Origin: a virus
IMG/VR virus record: IMGVR_UViG_3300045988_140928
Span: 32,001-96,000 of that record
Direction: 5' to 3' (one strand)
DNA length: 64,000 bases
Part shown: positions 9,314 through 63,366 of the stretch, piece by piece
Numbering within the stretch: position 1 is the first letter of the stretch
Layout of the letters: each line of letters starts with the position of its first letter
Made by a program: the position numbers and the translations under genes
The notes under the pieces: generated by a model
The model's input: only the letters and a program-made list of their open reading frames with translations
Databases searched by the model: none
Told to the model about the DNA's origin: nothing

Positions 9314-10459
9314 TCAGTCTGCATAATGAGTCTGAACATGGTTTTGAGCCTCGATCTTATCTAGGGTTTCCGATACCAATTTGCTAATACTTGATAAAGT
9401 ATCGTAAGTGTATTTTATCCTTAAAAGATTAATATTATTATCTAAACAAAATTGATCTTTTATTCTATCGTGTTTAACTAAGTCTGTAGAATAAAATTTA
9501 GAACCTCTATCAAAATGCTGTTTACCATCATATTCTATACATAAATTATAGTCTGGTAAATAAAAATCAAAGGGAAGCCTACGCTTATCTCTACACCCGT
9601 CAAACTTAAATTCTCTACAATACTCGATACTTAACTTATCCAATACCTTAGCAACCATAGAATTACCGTGACTAGATCCATGTTGAAAACACCAAGGGCA
9701 ACGGTGACCACTACCTATAAAATCATAAGGAATCATACTAAAACTCTTCCTACATATTTTATGCTTAAAAACAACTTTAGTCTTAGCATTTTTATATTTA
9801 CTCAATACTGTATAGTCACCATCAGTTAAGTTACATACAGTCTCTTCAAATTCTTGCTGTGTCCTTCTATGCTTTCCAAAACATCGAGGGCATCTTTCTC
9901 CTCCTAAGAAAGCAGTAGGACTAACCATATACACATTCCCACAAGAAAAATGTTTAACCTTGACCTTTGTATGTGAATTTTTATATACACTTAATAATTT
10001 ATAATCATCTTTTGCAACATAATAGAAGTCATGTTCAAACTGCTTAGGTGTTTTTCTAACTCCCCCTTTGCATCGAGGACATCTAGCACCCCGCAAAAAA
10101 GCACTAGGTGATACCTCATATTCATTCCCACACTTATTATGTTTCATCAAAATTTTAGTATTACTACCTACATATTCACCTAAAATAGAATATTCATTTC
10201 CTACTAAATTATATACCCTATCTCTAAATTCATCTGTAGTAAGTCTACACTTGATTCCTTTTTCTTTATCTGAGCAATAAAGACAAGTAGCTCCCCTATA
10301 AATATTACTAGGAAACATTAAGTTAATATGACCACATTTTAAATGCTTAACCCTAACTCTCGTAGTTGAGTTAACATACTTATCCAAAATAGCGTAATCG
10401 GAACCTAAAGCTCTAGTTGCCCTCTGAAGAAATTCTTCATTAGTTAATTTCCTAGACAT
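9314..10459 (-). CDS. free-standing homing-endonuclease-like protein: 4 zinc-ribbon repeats plus C-terminal PD-(D/E)XK (Vsr/DUF559-like) nuclease
   Basis: Four repeats of about 55 aa with the pattern Y..L..Y.n..tKv..KH..CG.....P..F..G.RCP.C. C-terminus RLPFDFYLPDYNLCIEYDGKQHF...HDRIKD. The last 18 aa duplicate the sheath C-terminus. Confidence 0.7.
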   Translation of the reverse strand: MSRKLTNEEFLQRATRALGSDYAILDKYVNSTTRVRVKHLKCGHINLMFPSNIYRGATCLYCSDKEKGIKCRLTTDEFRDRVYNLVGNEYSILGEYVGSNTKILMKHNKCGNEYEVSPSAFLRGARCPRCKGGVRKTPKQFEHDFYYVAKDDYKLLSVYKNSHTKVKVKHFSCGNVYMVSPTAFLGGERCPRCFGKHRRTQQEFEETVCNLTDGDYTVLSKYKNAKTKVVFKHKICRKSFSMIPYDFIGSGHRCPWCFQHGSSHGNSMVAKVLDKLSIEYCREFKFDGCRDKRRLPFDFYLPDYNLCIEYDGKQHFDRGSKFYSTDLVKHDRIKDQFCLDNNINLLRIKYTYDTLSSISKLVSETLDKIEAQNHVQTHYAD

Positions 10460-15540: not shown

Positions 15541-16638
15541 TTATAAAACAGCCTTTAAGAACTTCTTAATACCTTGGGGTGTATTAATTTTATAAGGAAT
15601 TCTAATTAAATAAATACCATGTGACTGACAATACCAGTCCTTTATGTGGTCACGTAACTTAGCCTCTCTAAAGTCATCTACTGTTCGCTGAAAATGATTT
15701 CTTTGAAAATGCTGTATACCATCGTATTCAATAGCAACCCCTATCTTGGGTAACCAAAAATCAAAAGGTAGTGTTCTTTTATATCTACACTGCTCAAATC
15801 TCTTTTGTATTTCATAAGCTATCCCCATCTTATCTAATACAGACTTAATATATTTCTCTCCAGTAGACTCATTACAATAAGGGCAACCAGTATTATTCTT
15901 AAGCAACCCAGTAGGTTGTGCTATAAATGTATGACCACAGATATTATGCTTAAACAATAGACGCTTTTGAGGTTTATAATCTTCTACTAAAGTATATTCA
16001 CCATGATAAATTTTGTTTAACTTATAATTATATTCGTCCTTAGTATATACATGATAAGTCTGGCACCTAGGACAACCCTTTAAATAATAAAAAGAATGGG
16101 GAGTTATCATCCATACATAGCCACATCTATTACACTGACACCTTATTCTTACTTCGTTACCTTGATAAGAATCCAAAAACTTAAACTGCCCATTATTTTT
16201 ACTTTCAACTCTCCTATAAAAATCATCTGAGGGGACTGATACTGCATGATTACAATAGGGACAACCAGTACCCCTAAAAAGATTATGAGCAATCGGATGA
16301 AAGATACGTCCACATTTTAGACACTTAACATCTAACCGTTCGTTAGCAAAAGTATACTTACTTAATACTACATACCTTCCATGATTAACTTTAGCAATCT
16401 TCTTATTAAAGTCTTCCTGTGTATAGGTCTGTTTCAAAACTCTACTTACTAACCCACACTTAGGGCAACGTTGTCTCCGTAAAAATGAATTAGGTGTCAT
16501 ATAAAATACATTACCACAGTCTATATGATAAAAAGCAACCTTAATCTTACTATTTTTATATGTAGTTAATGGAATAAACTCTTCACCTACTAAATTCTGA
16601 ACTTCCTCAGTAAATTCTTCATTAGTTTTTCTTCTCAT
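15541..16638 (-). CDS. free-standing homing-endonuclease-like protein (zinc-ribbon repeats plus PD-(D/E)XK)
   Basis: Paralogue of 9314..10459. Probable start is MRRKTNEEF at 16638. C-terminus TLPFDFWLPKIGVAIEYDGIQHF. Confidence 0.7.
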   Translation of the reverse strand: MRRKTNEEFTEEVQNLVGEEFIPLTTYKNSKIKVAFYHIDCGNVFYMTPNSFLRRQRCPKCGLVSRVLKQTYTQEDFNKKIAKVNHGRYVVLSKYTFANERLDVKCLKCGRIFHPIAHNLFRGTGCPYCNHAVSVPSDDFYRRVESKNNGQFKFLDSYQGNEVRIRCQCNRCGYVWMITPHSFYYLKGCPRCQTYHVYTKDEYNYKLNKIYHGEYTLVEDYKPQKRLLFKHNICGHTFIAQPTGLLKNNTGCPYCNESTGEKYIKSVLDKMGIAYEIQKRFEQCRYKRTLPFDFWLPKIGVAIEYDGIQHFQRNHFQRTVDDFREAKLRDHIKDWYCQSHGIYLIRIPYKINTPQGIKKFLKAVL

Positions 16639-16753
16639 AACTTCCATACCTTTCAAATATTTCGATATAACTAAAATAAATAGGAATAATCCCATTTATA
16701 TTATACCCCCAGAGACTAAATAAGCAACCAACTCATAAAAAGAAATAATGAGG

Positions 16754-17753: not shown

Positions 17754-19994
17754 CTAATTAAATTTAATAATAGGACCATCAACTTGATACAATTGCTTAA
17801 CCAACTTTGGGGTAAACTCAGTTTCATTATTCTCAATACAGAACTTATACCAAGGTTCAGCTCCATAATGCCATGAGGTCTTTTCTCTACCTTTATTATA
17901 CTGATCTAAAGCTTGGCGCAACTCTTTTGCCTTTAAGTAAAAAGGTGATTTCCACTTTAATAATTTGTTCTGACCATAAAGAACTAATCCTTCTCGTAAA
18001 GGATATTTTTCATTATAATCTTTAATCATTTCCTCTAGTTCAGCTTTATTCTTAGCAACGCCAATCTTAGTTTCGTCATTAATAACTTGCATTAATTTAG
18101 CACGGGCTGGATTATCAGCTTGTAATAATGAGTCTACTACCTTCCCTTGTGTATTATTAGTAATTACTGCTAAAGGAATTGCAGTCTTCTCTGTATACAA
18201 CTCAATATGAGGATTGTTAATTGGATCTATGATTTCAAAAACAACAGTCGTATTCTGATTAGCAAGATCAGAAAAATACTCATTCTTAAGAAATTCCCAA
18301 TACGTTTGGTGACGTGTATTAGGGAAAGGAATATCTTTTAAAACCTGTTCCCCAAACAAAGAATAAGTATAGTCACCGGCTTTTGAATAACATTTAACCT
18401 GTTTAAATTTTTTATCATAGAAAGTATATACAGGAAAACCATTCCACTTACGGGCTACCTCTACTGGATATTTAATAGTGCCTAAACTGTCTTGGGAACC
18501 CCGCTCATCAATAGCAAAGAATTTATCAAACCCACGTCCAATAATTTGATTATCACGAGAAAACAACCCACGTGCTTTAATTCGTTCATTGTTAAACTTA
18601 TTCTTAATAAAGATTTTAGAGTTAAAGTTATTAGCAACAATATCATGATCTAAAGAGGACTGTTTAATATCATGGTCATCAGACAACTTTTCAATTAGAG
18701 ACTTAGTATCAATCCGATCAATTTCATGTGGAATAATCTTATCTTTAGTTAAAGTAACCCAACGAAACTTATCTTCTGCTGTTAAATTAATACTATTATT
18801 TAGTACAAAATGATTAAATTGATTACGATGACCATGAATATTGAATGATAAAGGGTCTTTATAAGTACTCCATATTTTATCAACATCTCGATCATAAGGA
18901 TTATGTGTCTCATTATCTGGAACACCCATTACAAACTCTTCTTCATTAGCTAAGCCTAAAAAATTCGCAGAAGGCTCTAAACCAGCGTGAGTAATATAAA
19001 AACGCTTACGATCCCAGATAAAATAAAGATAGTCTAAAAATTTGTCTTCCATCTTATCAATTCGGCGATCAAGTTCTTTTTCTCCATACTTACTAAGTAA
19101 AACATCTAAAGTTTGGTGACCAAACTGACCAGTCTTTCTTCTTTGATTACGCCAAATCTCCCATGACAATTCATGATTTCCTCGCAAAAAGAATAAGTTA
19201 CTACCCGACAACTCACTAGTAATAAAATCAAATACCTTATCAGAAGCTGAACCACGATCTAAATAATCACCAACAAAAACATAAGCAGTTCCCGACTCAT
19301 GATTATCGAATACCTTTTCTAAAGCACTCATATCACCATGCACATCACCAATTATTTGAATCTTTTTAAACCGCTTATCAAAATCCAAAGGGCTAATATC
19401 TTGATCTAATCCATTATAAATAATACCGAATATATCGTTGTCATTAGACCCAACACTTAGAGGGGGATAGACCTCGGCAGATCTAGGTATGTTTCCACCA
19501 TTATCTAAATAACGATCAACAAACTTCTTAATAGTAGATATTTCAACTCTCTTATAAAAGCTTCTCTTATTATTATAATTACTTAATTGAGCAATTACTT
19601 GATCATACCAATCCTCACCGTACTTATGCTTGCAACGCTTAATCAGATCAGCCATAAAATCAATTACTATAACTTTATAATGATATTTCTTTACTAATTT
19701 ATTAATAGGTGACCAAGCTTTTTTGTATAACATAGTAGAGTCAAATACAGTTGTCATTCCATGCTTCATTCTATTTTCTAGCATCTCATAAGCAGTATTA
19801 AATACTTCTTTATTATATGATTGAGAAATAGATTGATCTAATCCATCTTGACCATTAATGGCAATTGTCTCTGGACTAGCATAAAGCATTCTAATATTAT
19901 CAACCTCAATCGTATAAGGTCCTAAATCATTTTGTTTAATCCAATATGACTTTCCTGAACCGGGTGCCCCTAAAGTAACAATTAATTTTCTCAT
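17754..19994 (-). CDS. three-domain polynucleotide kinase / metallophosphatase / RNA-ligase-type enzyme (bacterial Pnkp-like RNA repair architecture)
   Basis: Start MRKLIVTLGAPGSGKS (P-loop) with GGGAGG SD. Middle domain GDVHGD, GDYLDRG, RGNHE. C-terminus KWNG, EGLVLYG, LLKWKSP resemble nucleotidyltransferase motifs I, IV and V. Confidence 0.65.
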   Translation of the reverse strand: MRKLIVTLGAPGSGKSYWIKQNDLGPYTIEVDNIRMLYASPETIAINGQDGLDQSISQSYNKEVFNTAYEMLENRMKHGMTTVFDSTMLYKKAWSPINKLVKKYHYKVIVIDFMADLIKRCKHKYGEDWYDQVIAQLSNYNNKRSFYKRVEISTIKKFVDRYLDNGGNIPRSAEVYPPLSVGSNDNDIFGIIYNGLDQDISPLDFDKRFKKIQIIGDVHGDMSALEKVFDNHESGTAYVFVGDYLDRGSASDKVFDFITSELSGSNLFFLRGNHELSWEIWRNQRRKTGQFGHQTLDVLLSKYGEKELDRRIDKMEDKFLDYLYFIWDRKRFYITHAGLEPSANFLGLANEEEFVMGVPDNETHNPYDRDVDKIWSTYKDPLSFNIHGHRNQFNHFVLNNSINLTAEDKFRWVTLTKDKIIPHEIDRIDTKSLIEKLSDDHDIKQSSLDHDIVANNFNSKIFIKNKFNNERIKARGLFSRDNQIIGRGFDKFFAIDERGSQDSLGTIKYPVEVARKWNGFPVYTFYDKKFKQVKCYSKAGDYTYSLFGEQVLKDIPFPNTRHQTYWEFLKNEYFSDLANQNTTVVFEIIDPINNPHIELYTEKTAIPLAVITNNTQGKVVDSLLQADNPARAKLMQVINDETKIGVAKNKAELEEMIKDYNEKYPLREGLVLYGQNKLLKWKSPFYLKAKELRQALDQYNKGREKTSWHYGAEPWYKFCIENNETEFTPKLVKQLYQVDGPIIKFN

Positions 19995-19995
19995 T

Positions 19996-20721
19996 TCATA
20001 ACCTCCCATCTACAATAGCAAAAGGGTCAATTAAAGACGTAGGCAAGTCATTAGTTATACCATCTCCAATATAATAGCCAATAAAGTCGTCAACTGGAGT
20101 CACGTCTTTTGTATAGTCTGGTCTAGTAGCTAATAATTCGACATGACGAGGATTATTACTCTCTACTAACCGATGTTTTACATAGTTACTAATAGGATAA
20201 ATTCGATAGAGTAAATCGGTTCTAACTTGTCCTAGAGTTAAGAAATTATCAACCCAGAAATTCTTCTGCTTTTTAGTATGCTTATCGTTAGAAAGTAAAT
20301 CCTCTTGTAATTCTCTAAAAGTCCAAAGACCAGTTTCACGACCCTTTAGCTCTTCAATCAAAAATCCAAAGAATTGGTCTGCTAAATAACCTTCGGGATC
20401 AGCAATCTTAGAATTACGGTCTGGATAGAGAGTTTCCTTATAATTCTTTTCGGGACTATAAAGACGAGTAATAGTCTCAGCGTCATAAGTATGGTATTTA
20501 TGAACATTAACCCGATCTAAATAAACCTTAGGGTAAACACCAATAAAGCCCCGTTTATAAGCACGAGACATACAAATATTACAGAGCTTTTCATCTTTAT
20601 ATTCCCGTACATCTTTTACATCTGGATTAGCATTATAGTTTTCACGACACAAAGAATGATTATGATCCTCTGGATCAACTATGTGCCATTTCTTTTGTAT
20701 ACCTAATCGAAAAATTTTCAT
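19996..20721 (-). CDS. hypothetical protein
   Basis: 241 aa, ATGA-coupled to neighbouring ORFs. Cys pairs are present (CRENY...CNIC). Confidence 0.5.
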   Translation of the reverse strand: MKIFRLGIQKKWHIVDPEDHNHSLCRENYNANPDVKDVREYKDEKLCNICMSRAYKRGFIGVYPKVYLDRVNVHKYHTYDAETITRLYSPEKNYKETLYPDRNSKIADPEGYLADQFFGFLIEELKGRETGLWTFRELQEDLLSNDKHTKKQKNFWVDNFLTLGQVRTDLLYRIYPISNYVKHRLVESNNPRHVELLATRPDYTKDVTPVDDFIGYYIGDGITNDLPTSLIDPFAIVDGRL

Positions 20722-21693: not shown

Positions 21694-21751
21694 CTACTTT
21701 TGTACAAAAAAGTAAAATAAAAAAGACTGAATAACAGTCATTTACTCTAAA

Positions 21752-24115
21752 CTAACTAATTAAGTATGTAGCTAAAGGTTGGTAAGCAGTCTTATAATGC
21801 TTAACTATATCCTTAGGACTAGGAATATCAATTGTATGGCCTTTAACCTCTCTACGGTTAACATCAATGGCCTTATGAATAGAAGAACGACTAGCACCTA
21901 CAATCTTTCTAACTTTAGTCATTCCCTCTACCCAGTTACCATCAACAATAAAGTCATGATTATACTTAGTACTCTTCTTAGCTTTTTCTACTAATTTTTT
22001 AGCAACCTCTGAGGTGTAATCATCTGGTCTACAAAAGACAAATCCACCAAGAGATCCTTTTTTATCCTCTAAACAATGCTTAATGTTACGTTCACCTACA
22101 CCTAAAATTTCTGCACATGACCTAATAGACTCAAATTGGAATACTTGTAAAGTCTTAGTACTAATAGCATAGACAGGAGCAAAATGCTTATTAACTTTTT
22201 TAACAACCTTAGGCTTAATAGGTTTAGCTACTTCCTCATTATCACCATTCCAGTCATAATTAGGAAATGCTTTAAGCAATTCAGTCTCTGTATAAACTTT
22301 ATTTTCTTGACGATCGCGGATTAAACGTTCTTCTGTATCGCCTACTGAGTAATGAATACTGTCTTGCTTAGGGTAAGGTTCAATATCAAACTTTAAGGTC
22401 TTACGAGCTTGCTTCTTAAAGGTTTTTGAACCTAAGAACATAATGTAACGATACTTAATTGAACGTAAAATAAAGAAACGGTAATGATGTCCTTTAACCC
22501 ATTTACCACCTTTCTTATCTGGCCCATTATAGCAGAAAATACCAGAATCTGTAGTTCCACAGTATAAGAAATTAGTAGCTTGATAGATTGCTCCAGTATG
22601 GTGCATTCCTTGATCAGCAAAAGAGATAATAAACCAATTGCCTTCTTGTTCTTTCTTTAACTGTCTTAAAGTCCATGAAACAAACCTAGAGGTAATATTC
22701 TTTAAGTTTTGACTTACTTCGTCTTTAATGTATAGTCGGGATAATTCTAGGGTGTTATCTTTATTGGCTAAAGGTGAAATTGAGAAAGCTAAGGATTTGC
22801 GAACGTGAGTATATGTAACCATTCCTACTAGTTGATTTTGGTAATACATTCCATAAGCATACTTACAAGCTACTACCCGGTGCAGGTAATGGTACTTAAC
22901 CATTAATTCATGTAATTCACTACTATCAACTTTCCTAAAGCTAACATCACTAAATTCATCTACTTTATTCATAGTTAAATCTAACCCCCTGCTTTTTAAA
23001 TAATTCATTATTTGTTCTTCTGTACTTTCAGTATAAGGTATTCTGATAAGTTCAATATTATGATCTTTACAATATTTATCCTTTAAATTATCTCTATACT
23101 GCCTATTTTTATAGCTATCTCGCTTATCAAACATTCTATTAGGCTTATAATGTTGTTCACCGTCATATTCTATGCAAAGGTTGTAATCTGGTAAATAAAA
23201 GTCAAAAGGTAATTTACGATTACTATGTGGATTTATACAATCCTCAAATCGTTTTTGAGGAATTGACTTAACCCCTCTTTTATTTAATATTCGTTCAACC
23301 ATTAATTCACCCTTAGAACGATTACAATAGGGACAACGCTCACCCCCAAGAAAGCTATAAGGGGTCATTTTAAATACTCTATTACATTTATTATGCCTAA
23401 TTAATATCTTGGTTTTACTATTTTTATATTTACCTAAAACAGTATATTCTTTATCTACTTGTTGATATACTTCCCGTTTAAATTGACTATCACTCTTTTT
23501 AGCGTTGCCATAACAATATGGGCATCTCTGACCCATTAAGAATTTAGGAGGTTTTACTTGATATACTTTTCCACATTTTAAGTGTTTAATAGTAACGTCT
23601 GTTCTAGCATTAACATAAGGAGTTATTAATTGATACTCTCCTCTATTTTCCCTCTTAACTTTATCTTCAAATTCAAGCTTACTCTTAATATTACGTACCC
23701 TACCACCCCTCTTATAACGACAAGCTGGGCATCTCTGACCTACGGTTAAGAATAAATAAGCAGACATCTTAAAAATATTACCACAATCATTATGTCTAAA
23801 AGTAAGCTTACTATCAGCATTAACATATGTATCACTTAAAAGAGTATAGTGGTTACCAACCTGCTCTCTAACTTCTTTAAGAATTTGACTATAGGTTTTC
23901 TTCTCATGGTGGTTTGACTCACAAGTAGGGCATCTAGTGCCTCTTAAAAAGTTGTTAGGAACTACTTCCCACTCAGTGTTACACTTATTATGTTTCATTA
24001 ATATTTTAGTTTTACTATTCTTATATTCACCTAAAACAGTGTATTCGTTACCTACTAAACCATATACGTCTTGCTTAAACTCTTTAGTTGTTTTTCTTCT
24101 AGTAGACCTTACCAT
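21752..24115 (-). CDS. chimeric protein: zinc-ribbon/PD-(D/E)XK endonuclease module plus GNAT-like (Mom-like?) domain plus two NUMOD1-like DNA-binding modules
   Basis: Start MVRSTRRKTTKEF at 24115 (AAGGAGG SD). The first ~390 aa are colinear with the other three endonuclease paralogues. Then KYHYLHRV...ELSRLYI...FADQGMHHTGAIYQATNFLYCGT. Then VYAISTKTLQVFQFESIRSCAEILGVGERNIKHCL and MTKVRKIVGASRSSIHKAI. Confidence 0.6.
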   Translation of the reverse strand: MVRSTRRKTTKEFKQDVYGLVGNEYTVLGEYKNSKTKILMKHNKCNTEWEVVPNNFLRGTRCPTCESNHHEKKTYSQILKEVREQVGNHYTLLSDTYVNADSKLTFRHNDCGNIFKMSAYLFLTVGQRCPACRYKRGGRVRNIKSKLEFEDKVKRENRGEYQLITPYVNARTDVTIKHLKCGKVYQVKPPKFLMGQRCPYCYGNAKKSDSQFKREVYQQVDKEYTVLGKYKNSKTKILIRHNKCNRVFKMTPYSFLGGERCPYCNRSKGELMVERILNKRGVKSIPQKRFEDCINPHSNRKLPFDFYLPDYNLCIEYDGEQHYKPNRMFDKRDSYKNRQYRDNLKDKYCKDHNIELIRIPYTESTEEQIMNYLKSRGLDLTMNKVDEFSDVSFRKVDSSELHELMVKYHYLHRVVACKYAYGMYYQNQLVGMVTYTHVRKSLAFSISPLANKDNTLELSRLYIKDEVSQNLKNITSRFVSWTLRQLKKEQEGNWFIISFADQGMHHTGAIYQATNFLYCGTTDSGIFCYNGPDKKGGKWVKGHHYRFFILRSIKYRYIMFLGSKTFKKQARKTLKFDIEPYPKQDSIHYSVGDTEERLIRDRQENKVYTETELLKAFPNYDWNGDNEEVAKPIKPKVVKKVNKHFAPVYAISTKTLQVFQFESIRSCAEILGVGERNIKHCLEDKKGSLGGFVFCRPDDYTSEVAKKLVEKAKKSTKYNHDFIVDGNWVEGMTKVRKIVGASRSSIHKAIDVNRREVKGHTIDIPSPKDIVKHYKTAYQPLATYLIS

Positions 24116-24196
24116 TACTACTACCTCCTTACAAGTATTACTATACACCATAGTAAGTTAAATGTAAAGATGGTATATCAAATAATACAAATCAAT

Positions 24197-24232
24197 ATAA
24201 AAAGACGTAAGAACTTAATCATACGTCTTTTT
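24197..24232 (-). terminator. intrinsic terminator after major capsid gene
   Basis: Minus strand AAGACGTA-TGATTAAGTTCT-TACGTCTT followed by TTT. Confidence 0.6.
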
Positions 24233-24251: not shown

Positions 24252-25769
24252 CTAGTCGATTACACTAGAGGGAATTGACTTAGCTGTTGAGTTGTATAAT
24301 GTGTTATGGAGCAAAGCTACCCGCTTAGGGAAGATCAAAGCTAAACTTCCGTACCAGAGGTAAGCTTGATTTGTTGCAGTGCTGGTAATTGCGAGCGGGA
24401 ATTTAGTGATTGGCGCAAATTCAAGATAACGTACTGTAGTTGGACGATTTTCAATAATGAATACGTCACCAGTACCCGGAATAGTTTCGTTGTTATCTTC
24501 GAATACGATAGTACCGTCACCGGCCATCTTAGAGATAGCTACCCGACCTACAAGCCAGAATTGGTCATCACCCGGAACATCTGACTTTCTGTAAATTGCT
24601 ACATAATCAGGAATGTTAGCAACCATACGATTAAGAGTTGCAGTAATCTTAACAGTATCAGTAGGGTTCTTAACTTGAACCTTAACTTCATCAGAAGGTA
24701 ATGAGTCTTGTTGGCCTACAGCAACTACACGGTAAGTCAAGTCAACACCAACAGACTTGTTAAGAACAACTTTACCATCCTTGTCCTTCTTGTCGTCTGC
24801 CATAAACATACCAGCATCACCAGTAACAACTTCTGCCTTAACAGTTGGAGCTACTGGAGCGTCTTGATCTACAGCACCGTCCATATCAAGCTTCTTATCA
24901 AGGTCCATAATAGTTGAACCATGAAGAGCAATGTTACCACGAGCTGAAATGAACCGTTGAATATCAAGACCAACTTGCATACCAGCACCAGCTGAATTAG
25001 GTTGTAAGATACGTTGTGCGCCAAGGTGTTCGTTAACAAAATCAGCCTTAATACCTACAGGCATGTAAGCATCAGTTGGTGTACCATAACCTTGAGCAAT
25101 CTTAACAGCGGCTAAGTTAAGTGCTTGTGGCGTAAGAGAAGAACCACGCATATCAATCTTGTTATGTTCGTCCATTAACTTTTCAAGACCGTCAAACTCA
25201 AGACCTTCACCGTCTTGTTGAGCCAAGTCTGAGTCACCATAGAAAGTAGCATATTCAATAGCCTTAGCAATGTTGTTAATAGCTGAGATTTCCAACAGGA
25301 TGTTGGTATCAACAGTTGTATTAGCCCATTGCATTGCGAATGAACTACCCTTAGTGTCTACAAGGAACTTAACGTTAACAGTCTTTTGCCGTGCATGAGG
25401 TTCGTTAGAACGAAGCTTAGCAATTTCTGGTTGGAACATTTGGTGTCCTGTACGACCATGTGAGTAGTAAACAGTATACTTTTGAACTGTTTGGTTAACA
25501 GGTACCTTAGCAAGATCCTTATAGATTGTGTAATCTTCGTCTCCATAAGTAGAGATGTTAAGTTCTGGATCTAAAGCTTCCATACGATAAGCGGCACCAT
25601 CTGGTTGTGTTTCTGGTGTAATACCAGTACCAGCAGTAAAGGCTTTAACAACCCGGTCTGCCTTATCATTATTTAAAGACTTATTTAACTTGTCTTCTTG
25701 ATCTTTCTTAAAAACAGACTTTACTACAGTCTTTTTCTTTAATTCTGGCAAAATTTTCATCCTTTCCAT
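24252..25769 (-). CDS. major capsid protein
   Basis: About 500 aa, directly after the scaffold gene in a portal-protease-scaffold-capsid order and followed by a strong terminator. The start may be the second ATG (25760). Confidence 0.7.
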   Translation of the reverse strand: MERMKILPELKKKTVVKSVFKKDQEDKLNKSLNNDKADRVVKAFTAGTGITPETQPDGAAYRMEALDPELNISTYGDEDYTIYKDLAKVPVNQTVQKYTVYYSHGRTGHQMFQPEIAKLRSNEPHARQKTVNVKFLVDTKGSSFAMQWANTTVDTNILLEISAINNIAKAIEYATFYGDSDLAQQDGEGLEFDGLEKLMDEHNKIDMRGSSLTPQALNLAAVKIAQGYGTPTDAYMPVGIKADFVNEHLGAQRILQPNSAGAGMQVGLDIQRFISARGNIALHGSTIMDLDKKLDMDGAVDQDAPVAPTVKAEVVTGDAGMFMADDKKDKDGKVVLNKSVGVDLTYRVVAVGQQDSLPSDEVKVQVKNPTDTVKITATLNRMVANIPDYVAIYRKSDVPGDDQFWLVGRVAISKMAGDGTIVFEDNNETIPGTGDVFIIENRPTTVRYLEFAPITKFPLAITSTATNQAYLWYGSLALIFPKRVALLHNTLYNSTAKSIPSSVID

Positions 25770-29648: not shown

Positions 29649-30911
29649 TTAGAACTCGGTTTCATTCCTAATCTCATATTCACGTTGTATATCAGTCTGC
29701 TCTGGAGTAAAGATGTCATTATCAAGATAATCAATCTGAGTTGACTTTCTACGCTTCATTGCGTCCTCTTTCATTAACTTATCAAGCCCAGCCATAGCAT
29801 ATACCATTGACTGGAAATAATGATCTGGGCCTTTACGTAAGATAACCTTACTATACTCAATTAAATGTGTTTGCTGATTTTCTTTTTCATCAGTACGAAT
29901 AACAACATTTTTACCATGGGTAATAAGCTTTCTAACTTCTGAGTCATTCTGAGAACCAGACCAGAAATGAATATCGCCACGTTTAATATTACCCATAAGA
30001 ATAACATTTTGAGTAAGCTTATCCAAAGTAACGGTGGAATCCGTATCATTAAAGTGTGCATTAAAATCACCATTAGTCTTTGCAGACCTAACAACAACCC
30101 CGTATACACGCTGAATACCATAATAAGCCATCATCTTTTGTACATAATTACCAGAAAATCCTAAATCAGGACAAATAATATCAGGTTGATACTGATTTAT
30201 CTTTCTCATGACTAAATTTAAGTCTTCTTCAATATGTTCTACACCAGTTGATCTAGGAATTTGAGTAAGATCCATAAGGTCAATTTGACCATTACCTCTC
30301 ATACCTAAAGTAACAATTGAATGCACGTGCTCTCCCCAATCAACACCAATAGATACATACTTGTAATTACTTCTATCGTCTGGCTTATTATAACTACTAT
30401 CAATATGAGTTAAAACGTCCTCATCTCTAAAGGTTGCACCTTTATCTTCATAAGGCATCCCAAGCGAGTAATTATAGAAGAACTGCTTGGAAGGTGCTCT
30501 CATTTCCTCTTCCTTCAGTTTATCCGCCGTGATCCACACTGCATCCATTTGTGAAATAGCATAACCATGCCTACGCCCTGAACCGGGACGAGTTACAACC
30601 CATCTTGCATCGTACCATCTATCCAGCAATTTTCCACATTTCTGACAAACAAACTGAAAAGTACCCGGCTGTACAACTCTAGCGTCTGTATCTATACCAT
30701 CTTTATTTACTTGTTTTACATTCTTCTCATAGTCAAGAACCTGTTCAAAACCACAATGAGGACAAGTATGTACCCAACGTCTCTGGTCTGATTGTAAAAA
30801 CAGACGATGTATCCCGTAATTTTGTACTGTAGGCGTTGACCATCTACTTACAATCTTATAGGGTGAAGACTGCATAGACTGGATTGCTGACTGCTCTGCT
30901 AAAGGATTTAA
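29649..30911 (-). CDS. terL: terminase large subunit, exon 3 (nuclease half); 5' boundary approximate
   Basis: The 421-aa ORF has no credible start context. It continues the exon-2 reading ...LALDEYDRIEN / LNPLAEQSAIQ. The intron ends in G just before TTA at 30911. Confidence 0.7.
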   Translation of the reverse strand, partial: LNPLAEQSAIQSMQSSPYKIVSRWSTPTVQNYGIHRLFLQSDQRRWVHTCPHCGFEQVLDYEKNVKQVNKDGIDTDARVVQPGTFQFVCQKCGKLLDRWYDARWVVTRPGSGRRHGYAISQMDAVWITADKLKEEEMRAPSKQFFYNYSLGMPYEDKGATFRDEDVLTHIDSSYNKPDDRSNYKYVSIGVDWGEHVHSIVTLGMRGNGQIDLMDLTQIPRSTGVEHIEEDLNLVMRKINQYQPDIICPDLGFSGNYVQKMMAYYGIQRVYGVVVRSAKTNGDFNAHFNDTDSTVTLDKLTQNVILMGNIKRGDIHFWSGSQNDSEVRKLITHGKNVVIRTDEKENQQTHLIEYSKVILRKGPDHYFQSMVYAMAGLDKLMKEDAMKRRKSTQIDYLDNDIFTPEQTDIQREYEIRNETEF

Positions 30912-32357
30912 CAATTATATTAACTACTTATTTCTAAGTAGATTAGACTATATCTTTATCCTACTAGGATATTCCCTATATAGTCGTTAGACCTGTTTTA
31001 ACTTGGTACGGGATTAGCCTGCCTTACTTAAATTATAAGGTTTAGCTTCTCTTATCACCTTATTACGGTAAGCCCGTTTAGGGGATATTTATTTAACAGA
31101 TATTACTATCTGTGACCGCTTAAATGCTTAGTTAAAATTGATTTTATTTGTTTCTTAGTCGTAATAGTATATGGAATACGAATTAAAGTAATATCATTAT
31201 TTTTACAATAGGTGTCCTTAAGATAATCTCGATATACTAAACTTTTATAATTATCTATACCACCCCAAAAACTAATAGGCTTATAATGTTGTTCTCCATC
31301 ATATTCAATTGCTATCTTTTTATTAGGAAACCAAAAGTCAAAATGAAGATTATTCTTATACTTTAAATCTGGAATAATATACCCATAAGTAAAATCATTT
31401 CCCTCAGAATAATGGAAATCTTGGGTTAAAGACGATAATATTAATCTTTCACCGTAACTTGATCGTTCATGTAAAGCACAATAAGGGCAACCTGTATGGT
31501 TATATTGAATATCACCATACCTAGCTTCATACACAGTATTGCATACTAAATGCTTAATCTTAATATGTTGGCGATTGCCTTTATACTCATCATCTTTAGT
31601 TAGCACTACATATTCACTACCTAGAATATCTTTAATATTCTCCCTTACCTGAGATAAAGGAGTCCTTTGATTAATTCCAATCTTAGGTGAACGATCTACA
31701 TAGGAACATTTTAGGCATCCATGACCCCTCAAAAAATCAGCAGGACGTGTCATATAAATATTACCACATCTATTATGCTTAACTTTTACTAAAGTATCTG
31801 AATTTTTATATATAGATAATACGATATACTCATTACCCCACTGTTTCTTAACTCTACTTAAAAATTCGCTATTAGTCATAGTTCTTAATTTAACTCTGTG
31901 TTCCTTAGCACATTCAGGACAACGCTGACCATTCAAAAAGCTATTAGGATTCATCATAAAATGATGATTGCATTTAAGATGAATAAACTCTACCTTAGTT
32001 TTATTATTCTTATAAGGGGGTAATACACTATATTCATCTTTAGTTAATGACTTAACTTCATCTCTAAACTGCTCATATGACTTTCTTCTACCACGCTTTT
32101 TATTACTACATTTCGGACAACGTTGACCACATAAAAAATTATGTGGTGTCATATCAAAAACAGTCCCACATTTGATATGCTTAAAAGTAGTTTTATCATG
32201 AGTTCGAGTATATTCACCTTGAAGTTCATACTCACCTCCAGTCAATAAAGTAACTTTATCATTAAATGTTTTCGTATTCCAATATATTCTTTTAGTCATT
32301 ATAATTTACCTCTTTTCAAGATAAATTATAACATGACAAGCTTTATAATGCTATTAA
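30912..32357 (-). mobile_element. group I intron A in terL, carrying an endonuclease ORF (boundaries +/-10 nt)
   Basis: Interrupts terL right after the Walker-B-like LALDEYD. Stops occur in all terL frames. Its 3' 190 nt share colinear blocks with intron B, e.g. 30977-31016 vs 32641-32679 TATATAGTCGTTAGACCT.TTTTA.CTTGGTACGGGATTA (minus strand ...GGTCTAACGACTATATA). Confidence 0.65.
31106..32299 (-). CDS. intron-encoded homing-endonuclease-like protein (zinc-ribbon repeats plus PD-(D/E)XK)
   Basis: 397 aa, paralogue of 9314..10459. C-terminus LHFDFWFPNKKIAIEYDGEQHY. It lies wholly inside the terL interruption. Confidence 0.7.
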   Translation of the reverse strand: MTKRIYWNTKTFNDKVTLLTGGEYELQGEYTRTHDKTTFKHIKCGTVFDMTPHNFLCGQRCPKCSNKKRGRRKSYEQFRDEVKSLTKDEYSVLPPYKNNKTKVEFIHLKCNHHFMMNPNSFLNGQRCPECAKEHRVKLRTMTNSEFLSRVKKQWGNEYIVLSIYKNSDTLVKVKHNRCGNIYMTRPADFLRGHGCLKCSYVDRSPKIGINQRTPLSQVRENIKDILGSEYVVLTKDDEYKGNRQHIKIKHLVCNTVYEARYGDIQYNHTGCPYCALHERSSYGERLILSSLTQDFHYSEGNDFTYGYIIPDLKYKNNLHFDFWFPNKKIAIEYDGEQHYKPISFWGGIDNYKSLVYRDYLKDTYCKNNDITLIRIPYTITTKKQIKSILTKHLSGHR

Positions 32358-32576
32358 ATTCTCGATACGGTCATACTCATCCAGTGCAAGTCGATCAATT
32401 TTTAGACCTTCCATAGAGCTACCTTGTGAACTAGTACGGAAAATCAAATTAGAGTCTCTAATTTTCATACCATTCATTGTAGTTGTCTTAGGATCTTTAA
32501 TTAAAGACTTATAATATCCAGACTCAAACTCAGGTAGAATACGTTGCTTATAGAAGTCATTAAGTTGTCTGTAGGT
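32358..32576 (-). CDS. terL: terminase large subunit, exon 2 (boundaries approximate)
   Basis: My translation: TYRQLNDFYKQRILPEFESGYYKSLIKDPKTTTMNGMKIRDSNLIFRTSSQGSSMEGLKIDRLALDEYDRIEN. Too short to appear in the ORF track. Confidence 0.65.
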
Positions 32577-32783
32577 TTACAAATGTAAACGTAATTTATT
32601 ACGCCGTAAGACTATATCCCTATCTATATAAGATAACCTGTATATAGTCGTTAGACCTTTTTTACTTGGTACGGGATTAACTCTACTCTATAAGAGCTTA
32701 GTCTTTCTTACCAGCTTTTTAAGCTTTGCCCGTTTAGCAGGTTTATTTCAATTAACATTACTGTTAAAAGCCCCACCCTATCT
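32577..32783 (-). mobile_element. group I intron B in terL, ORF-less, about 207 nt (boundaries approximate)
   Basis: Homologous to the core of intron A. A P1-like pairing is possible, CCCU^A...UGGGG, with U.G at the exon-1 end. Confidence 0.55.
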
Positions 32784-33140
32784 AGGGAATGTATATAAAC
32801 CATTAGGCTTATCAACGCTATGTATATCAAGCCAATAAATCATCTGTTCAATTCCGACTTCCGAAAAACCCAACTGACGACTTTTAATTACGCACAGATC
32901 TGGATAATTAACATCGTCAATAACCATTTTCTGCCAAGGACGATGTGAAAGCGCTTTCGTAGTATCGTGATCAGGAACACTAAACGTTAATGGTTTACCA
33001 TTTATCGTATGGTGTTGAAGTAAATAATTACTAGGTCTACTCATACCCAGCACATAATTTAATTGGTCAACCGTAATAGGATCTTTAGGACCCAAGTTAA
33101 ACATAGACCTAGCCAACTTTGTTAATTGTTTACCGTCCAC
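32784..33140 (-). CDS. terL: terminase large subunit, exon 1 (Walker A region)
   Basis: GTG start abutting the stop of the upstream small ORF. CVIKSRQLGFSEVGIEQ is an RQ.G.S-type terminase ATPase motif. The ORF closes 2 codons after ...LYTFP. Confidence 0.7.
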
Positions 33141-53840: not shown

Positions 53841-53844
53841 ACAA

Positions 53845-53917
53845 TGTCCCGACCGAGACTCGGACTCGGATTTTCGGATTAGAAATCCGATGTTTTATCC
53901 AGTTAGACTATCGAGAC
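53845..53917 (-). tRNA. tRNA-Arg (anticodon TCT)
   Basis: Hand fold: GTCTCGA TA GTCT-AACTGGATA-AAAC A TCGGA-TTTCTAA-TCCGA AAAT CCGAG-TCCGAGT-CTCGG TCGGGAC A. One D-stem mismatch, C at position 55. Confidence 0.65.
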
Positions 53918-54057
53918 AAGTGTGCTATTAACACACATGGTTACACTTATACGTCCGAACACAAATTACAAACCAAAATAAGAAACCACTATTCAACATC
54001 AAATGTCATTAAGAAGGAAGGACCTAGTTACCATCACCCAAAGATAGCTAAGCCCAA

Positions 54058-54130
54058 TTGCGGAGACAGGACTTGAACCTGTGACCTCCAGATAATGAGT
54101 CTGGCGAGCTACCAACTGCTCCACCCCACG
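54058..54130 (-). tRNA. tRNA-Met (anticodon CAT) with initiator-like C1:A72 mismatch
   Basis: Hand fold: CGTGGGG TG GAGC-AGTTGGT-AGCTC G CCAGA-CTCATTA-TCTGG AGGTC ACAGG-TTCAAGT-CCTGT CTCCGCA A. Confidence 0.75.
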
Positions 54131-54230
54131 ATAAGAAAGGATTGGTCATTTGACTAACATTTAATTAATGTATTTAACCAACAATTTTATAATACACCTG
54201 TCTTATCATAAAAGCAAGAGGAATCGTGAA

Positions 54231-57126: not shown

Positions 57127-58200
57127 TATTACCACTCCTTATTCAAATTATCCATATGATAACTTCAAAAGTTGAAGAAGTAAATCACAAGTTCAATTAA
57201 TCGTCTCTTTTGACCTTTGTTAAATAATTCACAAGTACCTATAAAAATATAACTTATTATTTATTAGTAGTAAGCACTGAATCTATAACATTGAGCAATA
57301 TCTTATTTGTATTAAGACTAACTTTAGATAAGTAACTCTCCGTGTAATTTTAAACAATCTATTAATCTGAGTTAAATTATAACTTATTGTTACTTTTTTA
57401 CTGCTACTTAGATTATTCTTGGGGACGTACCTTTCCATCATAGGGAAAGGTAATTTCCCCAAACCCCTTTTGCCAAAGCTGTTAAATTCCAAGGAATTTA
57501 ATATTGTATATTTATTCTTAATTCTTATTTTTATACCTTAATTTTTTATTTCTTAAGTTAACATTATTTTTAATAATCTTAACTTAATTGATAAAGTAAT
57601 AATAAGGAATATGTTTAAATAAGATAATCTAAAGTATTGATATTAAGTAAGACTAGTAATACCTTTCCAGAGGGAGTGAGAGAAGAATATTTATCCCTGT
57701 TGGTTTAGAGACAAATATAAGTTAAATATTGCAAGTATATAATAAGACTACTAGTAAGTATATACTAATAGCTTTAATATACAATTACAGATAATCAACT
57801 TATGACGAAAAGGTAAACCTTTCCATCAGTCGGTCGGTCATCATTAATCAATTTATTGACTATAGCAAGTCAAGCTATAGTCATGCGCTAAGCTTTTTAC
57901 ATTCCTGTTGTCATCCCAAGAATGCTTTGTCAAACAATGTTACTTGTTTAACAGAGGTAATGAATAGCACTCCCACAACTTTAACCTCATACACTGCTAG
58001 GTACCCTAAAGCACTGGGTATCAGGATTTTTCTATCTTTTCACATTGGTTTTTAATCTATGTATGAGTAGACTCGTTTTATTAATTGACATTTACAACCG
58101 TGTGCTAACTACTACCATAAGGATGTGAATCTTTTAAATTCGAGCATCTGAACCTTATGCTTCATTCTCAAGTGTGTATGTAAATTTTAATACTGTTGAC

Positions 58201-58237
58201 TAAAAAGCTTAGCTAAGAAATGACTTAACTAAGCTTT
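58201..58237 (-). terminator. intrinsic terminator ending the candidate ncRNA
   Basis: Minus strand AAAGCTTAG-16 nt-CTAAGCTTT followed by TT. No T run follows on the plus strand. Confidence 0.45.
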
Positions 58238-58878: not shown

Positions 58879-58884
58879 AAATAG

Positions 58885-58893
58885 ATTATATCA
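58885..58893 (-). promoter_or_regulatory. extended -10 promoter element (TGaTATAAT)
   Basis: Minus strand ATGATATAAT. The -35 is weak. Confidence 0.4.
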
Positions 58894-59024
58894 TACTTTT
58901 ATCTACTAAAACCGTTTTGTAGTGAAAAAAAAATAAAAATTTCTTGCTATAAAATCAGCATTTGGGATTGAGTTTAGAGTTATAATTAAGTTATTAAATC
59001 TGAACAACGAAAAGGGAATAATTA

Positions 59025-59285: not shown

Positions 59286-59347
59286 TCAAGACTTATTATG
59301 TAAAACTGTATTACCTGTTCAAATACATTGGCTATTCTAATTATGAA

Positions 59348-59635: not shown

Positions 59636-59644
59636 GGTGATAAG

Positions 59645-59980: not shown

Positions 59981-60006
59981 TCGAAAAGACGCTTTACCAA
60001 CATGTA

Positions 60007-63310: not shown

Positions 63311-63366
63311 TAGGAGTGTATCCTCCGTCCTACCATTATGGTATATGTAAACAAGAACCGTGTTTA

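What the first reader, a model, noticed from the sequence alone, without database searches (positions are those of the whole stretch)
21752..24115. Endonuclease module fused to a GNAT/Mom-like domain and NUMOD1-like DNA binders
After a full endonuclease module (roughly 24115-22990) the same ORF continues with about 200 aa. These read VKYHYLHRVVACKYAYGMYYQNQLVGMVTY...LELSRLYIKDEV..NITSRFVSW...IISFADQGMHHTGAIYQATNFLYCGT. From memory this resembles the GNAT-fold family that includes phage Mu Mom, an adenine carbamoylmethylation enzyme. Two helix-turn-helix modules typical of GIY-YIG/HNH endonuclease DNA-binding tails follow (FESIRSCAEILGVGERNIKHCL; KVRKIVGASRSSIHKAI). A nuclease, a putative DNA-base modifier and sequence readers in one polypeptide is an architecture I have not seen described. 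It could couple self-protection (modification) to cleavage, or it could be a domesticated endonuclease.
Basis: partly seen in the sequence, partly recalled or inferred. Interest (0 to 1): 0.65.

Follow-up and report, generated by a model that had tools for sequence, protein, structure and literature searches.

The report
Homing nuclease fused to Mom DNA-modifier
A Lactobacillus-type phage carries one long, selected gene that joins a mobile DNA-cutting enzyme to an apparently active Mom-type DNA-adenine modifying enzyme and a DNA-binding tail. This kind of fusion has been predicted in other phages but never tested.

Summary
Window 24151..21752 (-) is one uninterrupted ORF of 799 aa. The likely start is the ATG at 24115, which has a strong ribosome-binding site.

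It has four parts:
- four treble-clef zinc-ribbon modules;
- a Vsr-like (EDxHD-type) nuclease core;
- a canonical Mom GNAT domain (Pfam E=1e-30; best structural match is Mu Mom, 8BV8);
- a double helix-turn-helix tail of the I-HmuI NUMOD-like type.

The fusion is not an artefact. An independent assembly about 10% diverged keeps it, and every part is under purifying selection (dN/dS 0.04-0.11).

In seven of ten close relatives the same slot after the capsid gene holds two genes instead: nuclease, then Mom-tail, overlapping by ATGA in six of the seven. In four of these the Mom-tail gene also carries an HNH domain. A more distant phage has three nuclease-Mom fusions. Mom and tail stay about 90% identical across relatives, while the nuclease is swapped (27-89%).

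The Mom residues that are invariant across the family are all present. Mu's essential R151 is Gly here, as in most of this subfamily.

The architecture is not undescribed. Iyer et al. 2021 reported Mom-REase fusions in jumbo phages and predicted restriction-modification-like logic, and PHROG 559 spans the nuclease and most of the Mom domain.

Verdict: real, a new variant of a known but untested kind. The coupling of modification to cleavage is plausible but unproven.

The parts
21752..24151 (-). Maximal ORF of 799 aa. The likely CDS is 21752..24115 (787 aa).
   Evidence: ORF list. Ribosome-binding site and start. Full-length homologues P0001-P0006.
24196..24232 (-). Hairpin plus T-run after the capsid gene; likely terminator of the capsid transcript.
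   Evidence: Read by eye from the sequence (AAAAGACGTA..TACGTCTTTTT). The scan did not call it because the stem has few G-C pairs.
24140..24168 (-). Promoter-like site, TTTACA-17-TATAGT.
   Evidence: 10 of 12 matches. This is a consensus match only. The count of such sites in the region is no higher than in shuffles.
24113..24130 (-). Ribosome-binding site AAGGAGGT (24130-24123) and the likely start ATG (24115-24113).
   Evidence: The N-termini of P0003 and P0004 agree.
23318..24115 (-). Four tandem treble-clef zinc-ribbon modules (aa 13-278), of the CapR/DUF4379 type. CxxC motifs lie at aa 74, 141, 210 and 273.
   Evidence: Pfam DUF4379 3e-9 and CapR 7e-9. Repeat listing. Invariant Cys and His. 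Model pLDDT about 90.
22973..23317 (-). Vsr-like (EDxHD-type) PD-(D/E)XK nuclease core, aa 279-393. E282, D317, E328, H334, D354 and K357 are conserved.
   Evidence: Foldseek hits Vsr 1VSR/1CW0 and the I-Bth0305I catalytic domain 3R3P with probability 0.99-1.0 and target TM 0.53-0.57, but weak E-values. Invariant residues. The homologue Los1 gp005 hits Pfam MTES_1575 and Vsr. PHROG 'homing endonuclease' families match.
22367..22972 (-). Mom-family GNAT domain, aa 394-595. H421, Y422, R472, S488, D513 and Y523 correspond to Mu H58, Y59, R111, S124, D149 and Y159.
22244..22366 (-). Clade-specific extension of about 40 aa beyond the end of Mu Mom (aa 596-636; motif HY..GD.E.R.I.DR). Function unknown.
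   Evidence: Conserved across the nuclease-associated Mom clade. The model shows a beta-hairpin plus a helix.
22184..22243 (-). Disordered linker, aa 637-656. Relatives carry a NUMOD4/HNH_3 nuclease domain of about 113 aa at this position.
   Evidence: pLDDT below 50. Comparison with P0010/L004/L007.
21755..22183 (-). DNA-binding tail, aa 657-799. It holds two strand-strand-helix-helix modules (about aa 660-707 and 733-775) of the I-HmuI NUMOD-like type.
   Evidence: Pfam PF22083 8e-6 and NUMOD1 0.007. Orthologues pass the cutoff. Secondary structure from the model. dN/dS 0.05-0.18.
21725..21739 (-). Terminator-like hairpin plus T-run, 13 nt after the stop codon.

Best explanation
The gene is a real, selected, in-frame fusion of what is a two-gene cassette in most close relatives.

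Part 1 (shown): a free-standing homing-type nuclease. It has four zinc-ribbon DNA-reading modules and a Vsr-like/EDxHD catalytic core.

Part 2 (shown): a Mom-family GNAT with every family-invariant active-site residue, followed by an I-HmuI-type double helix-turn-helix tail. The tail is most simply read as what remains of an HNH homing endonuclease whose HNH domain has been lost; that direction is inferred.

Inferred mechanism:
- The Mom domain is an active enzyme that acylates N6 of adenine in double-stranded DNA. By analogy with Mu Mom, it would transfer glycine from host Gly-tRNAGly, which then rearranges to carbamoylmethyl-adenine.
- The tail, and the variable Mom insertion at aa 535-564, set where it acts.
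- The phage genome is thereby marked as self.
- The linked nuclease cuts unmarked DNA, either from related co-infecting phages or from the host.
- The unit therefore behaves like a mobile, single-chain restriction-modification module built on a homing-endonuclease chassis. It may also protect the phage from host restriction.
For: Domain identities.

The fusion is real and selected. Independent full-length homologues exist. Contig L011 is continuous across the junction, with dN/dS of 0.11 (zinc ribbons), 0.08 (nuclease core) and 0.04 (Mom) at dS 0.46-0.78.

The Mom active site is kept. The equivalents of H58, Y59, R111, S124, D149 and Y159 are essentially invariant in the fused proteins (47/47; 46/47 for H58 and Y59, the one exception being an alignment gap) and nearly invariant (75-79 of 79) in stand-alone representatives. 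The core at aa 465-534 is 80-93% conserved in the clade, while the segment matching Mu's DNA-contacting insertion varies. Mom dN/dS is 0.03-0.10.

There is a Rosetta-stone pattern in the same slot after the capsid gene:
- nuclease + Mom-tail as two genes;
- nuclease + Mom-HNH-tail as two genes;
- nuclease-Mom-tail fused;
- nuclease-Mom + a separate 152-aa tail gene.

Other support:
- The slot is occupied in 10 of 10 relatives, whereas other homing-gene slots are only sporadically filled.
- One phage has three nuclease-Mom units, each with its own intact Mom.
- Of the 11 nearest Mom representatives found with the Mom domain alone as query, at least 6 are fused to a nuclease region.
- Mom is also joined to HNH in both orders.
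- Iyer et al. 2021 independently predicted the same logic for jumbo phages.
- The Mu Mom mechanism and its essential residues come from PMC13219725.
Against: No biochemical data exist for any nuclease-Mom fusion.

Mu's essential R151 is Gly515 here. The HTH-like insertion is about 12 aa shorter than in Mu, and Mu's dimerisation residue W48 is not conserved. The donor, the chemistry and the oligomeric state may therefore differ from Mu.

Three Mom-less paralogues of the nuclease in the same window manage without their own Mom.

Among phages with 94-97% identical capsid proteins, the nuclease is replaced (27-89% identity) while Mom stays about 90% identical. This pattern also fits unrelated selfish genes repeatedly landing next to a useful resident gene.

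Nothing shows that nuclease and Mom recognise the same sites.

In published Campylobacter and PA5oct-like phages, the Mom-like domain of such nucleases appears to have lost the S124 and D149 equivalents. Catalysis is therefore not obligatory for this architecture.
Confidence: 0.5

Rival explanations
1. Incidental fusion. Mom-tail is a resident anti-restriction gene of this phage lineage and acts genome-wide against host restriction enzymes, as in Mu. The zinc-ribbon/Vsr-like homing genes simply home into the site just upstream of it. A small indel then merged two overlapping reading frames. The two halves work independently, and the nuclease neither senses nor depends on the modification.
For: Mom-tail is fixed and about 90% identical across relatives, while the upstream nuclease is swapped between at least three types. 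The recombination break-points are variable on the left and constant on the right, just inside the Mom start. The same nuclease family is clearly mobile elsewhere: the copy at 15541-16695 is absent from seven relatives, and other copies split the terminase and portal genes. Six of the ten relatives keep two genes with a 4-nt ATGA overlap, one frame-shift away from fusion. The junction Met394 is kept, with a G-rich ribosome-binding-like stretch upstream. Three Mom-less paralogues lie in the window.
Against: The slot is always occupied, unlike any other homing slot. Nuclease-Mom fusions recur at 40-50% identity in many metagenomes, three times in one genome, and with HNH as well as Vsr-like nucleases. 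Chance adjacency does not predict this. The fused state persists under purifying selection.
Confidence: 0.3
2. The Mom-like domain is a non-catalytic DNA-recognition or base-flipping module that the homing endonuclease has recruited, like a NUMOD. No DNA modification is made.
For: Homing endonucleases shuffle DNA-binding modules freely. In Campylobacter phage Los1 gp005 and Pseudomonas phage Ettore 0111, the C-terminal Mom-related region is not recognised by Pfam Mom and seems to lack the S124 and D149 equivalents. Ettore 0111 sits inside a split DNA polymerase gene. Mu R151 is missing here.
Against: In this clade all family-invariant catalytic residues are essentially strictly kept (47/47 fused members; 46/47 for the H58 and Y59 equivalents). 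The catalytic core is the most conserved part of the protein. R151 is also absent from most stand-alone Mom relatives, which have an invariant His three residues on. dN/dS is 0.03-0.10.
Confidence: 0.12
3. Assembly or sequencing artefact: a false frameshift joins two genes that are really separate.
For: Most close relatives have two genes in different frames at this junction.
Against: Fused forms occur in several independent assemblies with different nuclease variants: P0001-P0006, and loci L003 and L011. L011 differs at about half of its synonymous sites yet stays in frame.
Confidence: 0.02

Closest known systems
Bacteriophage Mu Mom (PDB 8BV8; Pfam PF25680), the tRNA-dependent adenine-N6 glycyl transferase that yields carbamoylmethyl-adenine
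   Same: Same Pfam family and same GNAT fold. It is the best structural match. The equivalents of H58, Y59, R111, S124, D149 and Y159 are present.
   Different: About 20-22% identity. R151 is replaced by Gly, with an invariant His at Mu position 154 instead. The HTH-like insertion is about 12 aa shorter. W48 is not conserved. There is an extra conserved C-terminal extension of about 40 aa. The domain is embedded between a nuclease and a helix-turn-helix tail rather than standing alone. Activity and acyl donor are untested.
Mom-REase fusions of jumbo phages (Iyer, Anantharaman, Krishnan, Burroughs, Aravind 2021, PMC7824862), and PHROG 559 proteins such as Campylobacter phage Los1 gp005 and Pseudomonas phage Ettore 0111
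   Same: Zinc ribbons, a Vsr-like REase-fold nuclease and a C-terminal Mom-related domain in one chain. These proteins occur in multiple copies per genome and are annotated as homing endonucleases. An R-M-like role has already been proposed for them.
   Different: The published examples checked here have a divergent Mom-like region that Pfam Mom does not detect and that has altered catalytic positions. The window protein has a canonical, intact Mom and an added NUMOD-like tail. It comes from a Herelleviridae-like Lactobacillus-type phage.
EDxHD / Vsr-like homing endonucleases (I-Bth0305I, phage Hef-type; PMC3239194)
   Same: The catalytic core has the Vsr-like fold and a conserved E...D...H...D set. 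It is joined to modular DNA-binding repeats in a two-part design. Paralogues are mobile and split essential genes.
   Different: DNA binding is through four treble-clef zinc ribbons at the N-terminus instead of NUMODs. The gene stands free rather than sitting in an intron. There is no significant sequence match to 3R3P or Vsr. It carries a modification domain.
I-HmuI-type HNH homing endonucleases (NUMOD4 + HNH + NUMOD-like HTH tail)
   Same: The tail matches PF22083. In relatives L004 and L007 the same tail directly follows a NUMOD4/HNH_3 domain.
   Different: The HNH domain is absent from the window protein and is replaced by a 20-aa disordered linker.
Single-chain (type IIG/IIC-like) restriction-modification enzymes
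   Same: Nuclease, DNA modifier and DNA-recognition elements lie in one polypeptide.
   Different: The modifier is a GNAT acyl-transferase, not a SAM methyltransferase. The nuclease is of homing type. The gene is phage-borne. There is no PADLOC hit. Shared specificity is unproven.

Membership tests
Mom family (PF25680) | Profile match above the curated cutoff, over the full domain length | tested here: met
   107.2 bits against a cutoff of 27.1; profile positions 3-202 of 202. Match to the 8BV8 sequence at E=3e-10.
Mom family (PF25680) | GNAT fold closest to Mu Mom | tested here: met
   Foldseek places 8BV8 at ranks 1 and 2 (E=6e-11, target TM 0.73), followed by generic GNATs. Model pLDDT in the domain is about 90.
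Mom family (PF25680) | Residues shown important in Mu: H58, Y59, R111, S124, D149, Y159 | tested here: met
   They correspond to H421, Y422, R472, S488, D513 and Y523. They are essentially invariant in the fused homologues (47/47; 46/47 for H58 and Y59).
Mom family (PF25680) | Mu R151, essential in Mu | tested here: not met
   Gly515 occupies this position. It is Gly, Ala or Ser in most of this subfamily, which has an invariant His at Mu position 154.
Mom family (PF25680) | HTH-like insertion (Mu 175-209) and W181 | tested here: inconclusive
   An insertion is present but about 12 aa shorter, and it varies within the clade. A conserved Trp (W551) lies in it, but it does not align with W181.
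Mom family (PF25680) | Forms N6-carbamoylmethyl-dA from Gly-tRNAGly on double-stranded DNA | not testable with these tools
   This needs LC-MS or enzymology.
EDxHD / Vsr-like homing endonucleases | Vsr-like nuclease fold | tested here: met
   Foldseek hits 1VSR, 1CW0 and 3R3P with probability 0.99-1.0 and target TM 0.53-0.57, though with weak E-values of 0.016-0.044. The homologue Los1 gp005 hits Pfam Vsr and MTES_1575.
EDxHD / Vsr-like homing endonucleases | Conserved E, D, H, D catalytic set | tested here: inconclusive
   D317, H334 and D354 are invariant, and E282 is kept in at least 90% of 24 homologues, in the right order. The one-to-one mapping onto Vsr E25, D51, H69 and D97 is inferred, not aligned. 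There is no sequence-level hit to Vsr or 3R3P.
EDxHD / Vsr-like homing endonucleases | Mobility: presence/absence between related genomes, or insertion in conserved genes | tested here: met
   This is met for the paralogues. The copy at 15541-16695 is absent from seven relatives, and other copies split the terminase and portal genes. For the fused copy itself, the slot is always full but the nuclease type is exchanged.
EDxHD / Vsr-like homing endonucleases | Site-specific cleavage next to its own insertion site | not testable with these tools
   This needs cleavage assays.
I-HmuI NUMOD-like tail (PF22083) | Profile match above the cutoff | tested here: inconclusive
   The window protein scores 25.8 bits against a cutoff of 27. 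Its 91%-identical orthologue scores 27.7, and P0121 scores 32.9.
I-HmuI NUMOD-like tail (PF22083) | Occurs downstream of an HNH/NUMOD4 nuclease | tested here: met
   Met in relatives, not in the window protein. L004, L005 and L007 have Mom-NUMOD4/HNH_3 followed by the same tail at 87-92% identity.
Restriction-modification-like unit | Modification blocks cleavage by the linked nuclease, and both share specificity | not testable with these tools
   Only the physical and genomic linkage is shown.

The most novel reading that the evidence does not exclude
A whole clade of catalytically intact Mom enzymes lives inside homing endonucleases and gives them self-immunity through covalent base hypermodification. 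The element marks its carrier genome with a tRNA-derived adenine adduct at the nuclease's target sites, then cuts unmarked rival genomes. The variable Mom insertion, the zinc ribbons and the NUMOD tail would set a site specificity that can be swapped module by module. This would be the first homing endonuclease protected by DNA modification rather than by disruption of its target site. It would also be a natural, sequence-targeted DNA hypermodification enzyme.
Probability: 0.3. Interest if true: 0.75.

Novelty: new variant of a known kind. Interest (0 to 1): 0.47.

Why it matters
Mom was shown only in 2026 to use charged tRNA to modify DNA, and only stand-alone Mom enzymes have been studied.

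This locus shows that the Mom clade nearest to it is mostly wired to homing-type nucleases. The natural split and fused variants point to a functional partnership between the two.

If the partnership is real, it would be a phage-borne, mobile restriction-modification logic based on an acyl adduct. It would also offer modular parts for targeted DNA modification.

If it is not real, the locus is still a clear example of selfish nucleases nesting around, and fusing with, a useful anti-restriction gene.

Tried and rejected
1. Near-identical DNA in GenBank phages: none. By protein search, no GenBank phage covers 80% or more of the query. The closest capsid is Lactobacillus phage LfeInf at 65%. Its gene order differs, so it gave no empty-site comparison.
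2. Intron-encoded gene: rejected. Rfam finds no group I or II intron around this gene or around the terminase-splitting paralogue, even at E up to 1.
3. Defence-system membership: no PADLOC hit.
4. Sequence-level links from the nuclease or tail to solved structures: none, with either the single sequence or the profile. Only fold-level links were found.
5. NCBIfam: nothing meaningful.
6. A phage-encoded tRNA-Gly as a Mom co-substrate: not in this window. Only Arg and Met were found, plus two weak hits.
7. An empty slot (capsid gene directly followed by the 78-aa gene) in relatives, to prove mobility of the whole cassette: not found in ten loci.
8. Literature on 'Mom-like' together with homing endonucleases: nothing beyond Iyer et al. 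2021. Iyer et al. 2009 (PMC2995806) is not held. The supplement of the 2026 Mom paper is not held, so I could not check whether its active homologues A and B carry R151.
Full report
**1. What is there**

On the minus strand, window 24151..21752 is one open reading frame of 799 aa. The first ATG has no ribosome-binding site. The ATG at 24115 lies 8 nt downstream of AAGGAGGT, and the orthologues P0003 and P0004 start there.

The gene lies 100 nt downstream of the major capsid gene (24252-25769). Between the two are a hairpin with a T-run (read by eye) and a promoter-like site. A terminator-like hairpin follows the stop codon. The gene therefore looks like its own small transcription unit. Rfam finds no intron around it.

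The window comes from a Herelleviridae-like myovirus. Its nearest published capsid is that of Limosilactobacillus fermentum phage LfeInf, at 65% identity. The gene has no near-identical DNA in GenBank phages.

**2. Domain anatomy**

*Zinc ribbons, aa 13-278.* Four repeats of about 65 aa, each ending in CxxC. Pfam calls them CapR/DUF4379 treble-clef zinc ribbons.

*Nuclease core, aa 279-393.* A compact alpha/beta domain.
- An AlphaFold model of the N-terminal 395 aa (pLDDT 84) finds E. coli Vsr (1VSR, 1CW0) and the catalytic domain of the homing endonuclease I-Bth0305I (3R3P). Foldseek probability is 0.99-1.0 and target TM is 0.53-0.57, but E-values are weak.
- In an alignment of 24 homologues, D317, E328, G331, H334, D354 and K357 are invariant and E282 is nearly so. 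This order fits the E-D-x-H-D set that defines that family (PMC3239194). The residue-by-residue mapping is my inference.
- No sequence-level match to solved structures was found.

*Mom domain, aa 394-595.*
- Pfam PF25680, E=1.2e-30, over the full profile.
- PHROG 1384 'Mom-like DNA modification protein'.
- Match to the Mu Mom crystal-structure sequence at E=3e-10.
- 8BV8 is the top structural match for the full-length model.

*Extension, aa 596-636.* A conserved stretch of about 40 aa beyond the end of Mu Mom, specific to this clade.

*Linker, aa 637-656.* Predicted disordered.

*Tail, aa 657-799.* Folds as two strand-strand-helix-helix modules. The first matches I-HmuI_NUMOD-like just below the cutoff. 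Orthologues pass the cutoff.

**3. Is the Mom domain likely to be an enzyme?**

The 2026 structure-function study of Mu Mom (PMC13219725) lists the following as important or essential: H58, Y59, R111, S124, D149, R151, Y159, W48 (dimer contact), W181 and the HTH-like insertion at 175-209. The PDB chain numbering is offset by 9 from that paper's numbering. The 231-aa GenBank and 2020-paper numbering is offset by 10.

The query has H421, Y422, R472, S488, D513 and Y523 at the six core positions. In an alignment of 131 family members, these six are essentially invariant in the 47 nuclease-fused proteins (47/47; 46/47 for H58 and Y59, the one exception being an alignment gap). They are nearly invariant (75-79 of 79) in the 79 stand-alone proteins.

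R151 is Gly515. This holds for most of the subfamily, fused or not. The subfamily instead has an invariant His at Mu position 154.

The insertion is about 12 aa shorter than in Mu. It is the least conserved segment of the domain (aa 535-564, mean conservation 0.53-0.64). The catalytic core at aa 465-534 scores 0.79-0.93.

Pairwise dN/dS is 0.03-0.10 for Mom and 0.05-0.18 for the tail, at dS 0.16-0.8.

I conclude that the domain is very probably catalytic. Its donor and product may not be identical to Mu's.

**4. The fusion is real, and it is one state of a polymorphic cassette**

*Independent support for the fused state.* P0001 (796 aa, 90% identical) and P0002-P0006 are full-length fused homologues from other assemblies. 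IMG/VR contig L011 reads through the junction (…GLDLTMNKVD…). Its dN/dS is 0.11, 0.08 and 0.04 for zinc ribbons, nuclease core and Mom.

*The same slot in ten loci from phages whose capsid proteins are 94-97% identical*:
- One ORF, nuclease-Mom-tail: the window, L003 and L011.
- Two genes, a 378-aa nuclease and a 405-aa Mom-tail, overlapping by ATGA: L008, L009 and L010.
- Two genes, a 378-aa nuclease and a 502-aa Mom-NUMOD4/HNH-tail: L004, L005, L007 and L012. The two overlap by ATGA in the first three, and in L012 they appear to lie in different frames without that overlap. The L012 contig ends within Mom, so its HNH and tail are assumed from its similarity to L004.

The Pfam content of these proteins is confirmed.

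*Junction.* The split and fused forms differ by a 4-nt length change that brings the Mom ATG into the nuclease frame.

*Conservation pattern.* Across these genomes Mom is 90-93% identical and the tail 83-97%. The nuclease is 27-89% identical. DNA homology breaks inside the nuclease at variable points and resumes 33-60 nt after the Mom start codon.

*A more distant phage (L016/L017, capsid 72%).* It carries three nuclease-Mom fusions within 8 kb. The first is followed by a separate 152-aa NUMOD-like gene. Their Mom domains are 63-68% identical to one another and keep all catalytic motifs. Their nucleases are only 31-39% identical.

*Other architectures in the protein databases*:
- Mom-HNH-NUMOD
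- HNH-NUMOD-Mom
- Mom-NUMOD
- ZnR-Mom
- ParB_N-Mom

*Frequency of fusion.* With the Mom domain alone as query against 1.8 billion representatives, 1530 proteins match. Most are stand-alone proteins of 200-260 aa. Of the 11 closest, at least 6 are fused to a nuclease region.

**5. The nuclease family is mobile in this lineage**

The window holds three Mom-less paralogues: 9314-10459, 15541-16695 and 31106-32299.
- The second is absent from the same slot in seven relatives.
- The third separates the terminase large-subunit gene into an N part (32778-33140) and a C part (29649-30914).
- Relatives carry other copies inside the portal gene (L009, L010) or the terminase gene (L007).

In Pseudomonas phage Ettore, a related 560-aa 'homing endonuclease' lies between two halves of a DNA polymerase gene.

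In contrast, the slot next to Mom is filled in all ten relatives.

**6. Comparison with what is known**

The architecture is not new in kind. Iyer et al. [quoted passage not shown] They predict that momylation protects phage DNA while the nuclease attacks host or superinfecting DNA.

PHROG 559 aligns to aa 82-542 of the query, which covers the nuclease and most of Mom.

However, the published members I checked have a divergent Mom-related region: Campylobacter phage Los1 gp005 and Ettore 0111.
- Pfam Mom does not detect it.
- In a local profile alignment it seems to lack the S124 and D149 equivalents.

The window protein belongs to a clade with a canonical, intact Mom. It adds a NUMOD-like tail inherited from an HNH-type endonuclease.

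The two experimental Mom papers do not mention fusions. The 2026 study built its profile from sequences 'only containing Mom domains'.

**7. Mechanism: what is shown and what is inferred**

*Shown:*
- the domain identities;
- the intact catalytic motifs;
- purifying selection on every part;
- a linkage of nuclease, Mom and tail that is conserved in both split and fused forms;
- mobility of the nuclease family.

*Inferred:*
- Mom modifies adenines in phage DNA.
- The nuclease spares modified DNA and cuts unmodified rivals.
- The tail and the variable insertion give targeting.

The main rival is that selfish nucleases repeatedly land beside a useful anti-restriction gene and sometimes fuse with it, without any functional cross-talk. 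The swap pattern in section 4 fits that rival well. The always-occupied slot, the multi-copy fused units and the recurrence with two unrelated nuclease types fit it less well.

A purely DNA-binding role for Mom is unlikely in this clade. An assembly artefact is excluded for practical purposes.

**8. Verdict**

The novelty claim is overstated. The functional coupling is plausible (about 0.5) but untested.

This is a new variant of a known, purely predicted kind of phage protein. It is of moderate interest, mainly as an experimentally tractable entry point into nuclease-linked Mom enzymes.

Noticed in passing
window 9314-10459, 15541-16695, 31106-32299 (all - strand): Three Mom-less paralogues (35-38% identical) of the zinc-ribbon/Vsr-like nuclease. 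The copy at 15541-16695 is absent from the same slot in seven close relatives, which is a homing-type presence/absence polymorphism.
   Followed up: partly
window 29649-33140 (- strand): The terminase large-subunit gene appears split. An N-terminal piece (32778-33140) and a C-terminal piece (29649-30914) are separated by the nuclease gene 31106-32299 and about 670 nt of non-coding DNA. No Rfam intron was detected, so whether this is an unrecognised intron or a truly split gene remains open.
   Followed up: partly
window 17754-20009 (- strand): A 751-aa fusion of an AAA_33 kinase, a metallophosphatase and a T4 Rnl1-type RNA ligase, which looks like a tRNA-repair protein. It is present in the window and L003 but missing from L004, L005 and L007-L010. 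It lies 1.7 kb from a gene whose Mu homologue uses charged tRNA. No link between the two has been established.
   Followed up: no
L016/L017 (ENA ERZ28614708 scaffold_36), locus L016 7781-15565: One phage carries three complete nuclease-Mom fusions (479, 554 and 542 aa), a zinc-ribbon-only gene and a separate 152-aa NUMOD-like gene, all interleaved with structural genes.
   Followed up: partly
L009 1224-3884 and L010 1223-3882; L007 2-2171: In close relatives, paralogous nuclease genes interrupt the portal gene (L009, L010) and the terminase gene at a different place (L007).
   Followed up: partly
L015 (Pseudomonas phage Ettore, OR805294.1 87802-93028): A 560-aa 'homing endonuclease' with a degenerate Mom-like C-terminus sits between two ORFs that are both annotated as DNA polymerase.
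   Followed up: partly
window 53844-54131 (-) and 63093-63577 (+): tRNA-Arg(tct) and tRNA-Met(cat) genes. Only Rfam finds two further weak tRNA-like hits on the plus strand. There is no tRNA-Gly.
   Followed up: no
window about 58000-60000: GC skew changes sign and the coding strand switches from minus to plus, which probably marks a boundary between divergent transcription modules.
   Followed up: no
window 22244-22366 (aa 596-636): A conserved extension of about 40 aa (HY..GD.E.R.I.DR…) after the point where Mu Mom ends. It is specific to the nuclease-associated Mom clade and has no known function.
   Followed up: no
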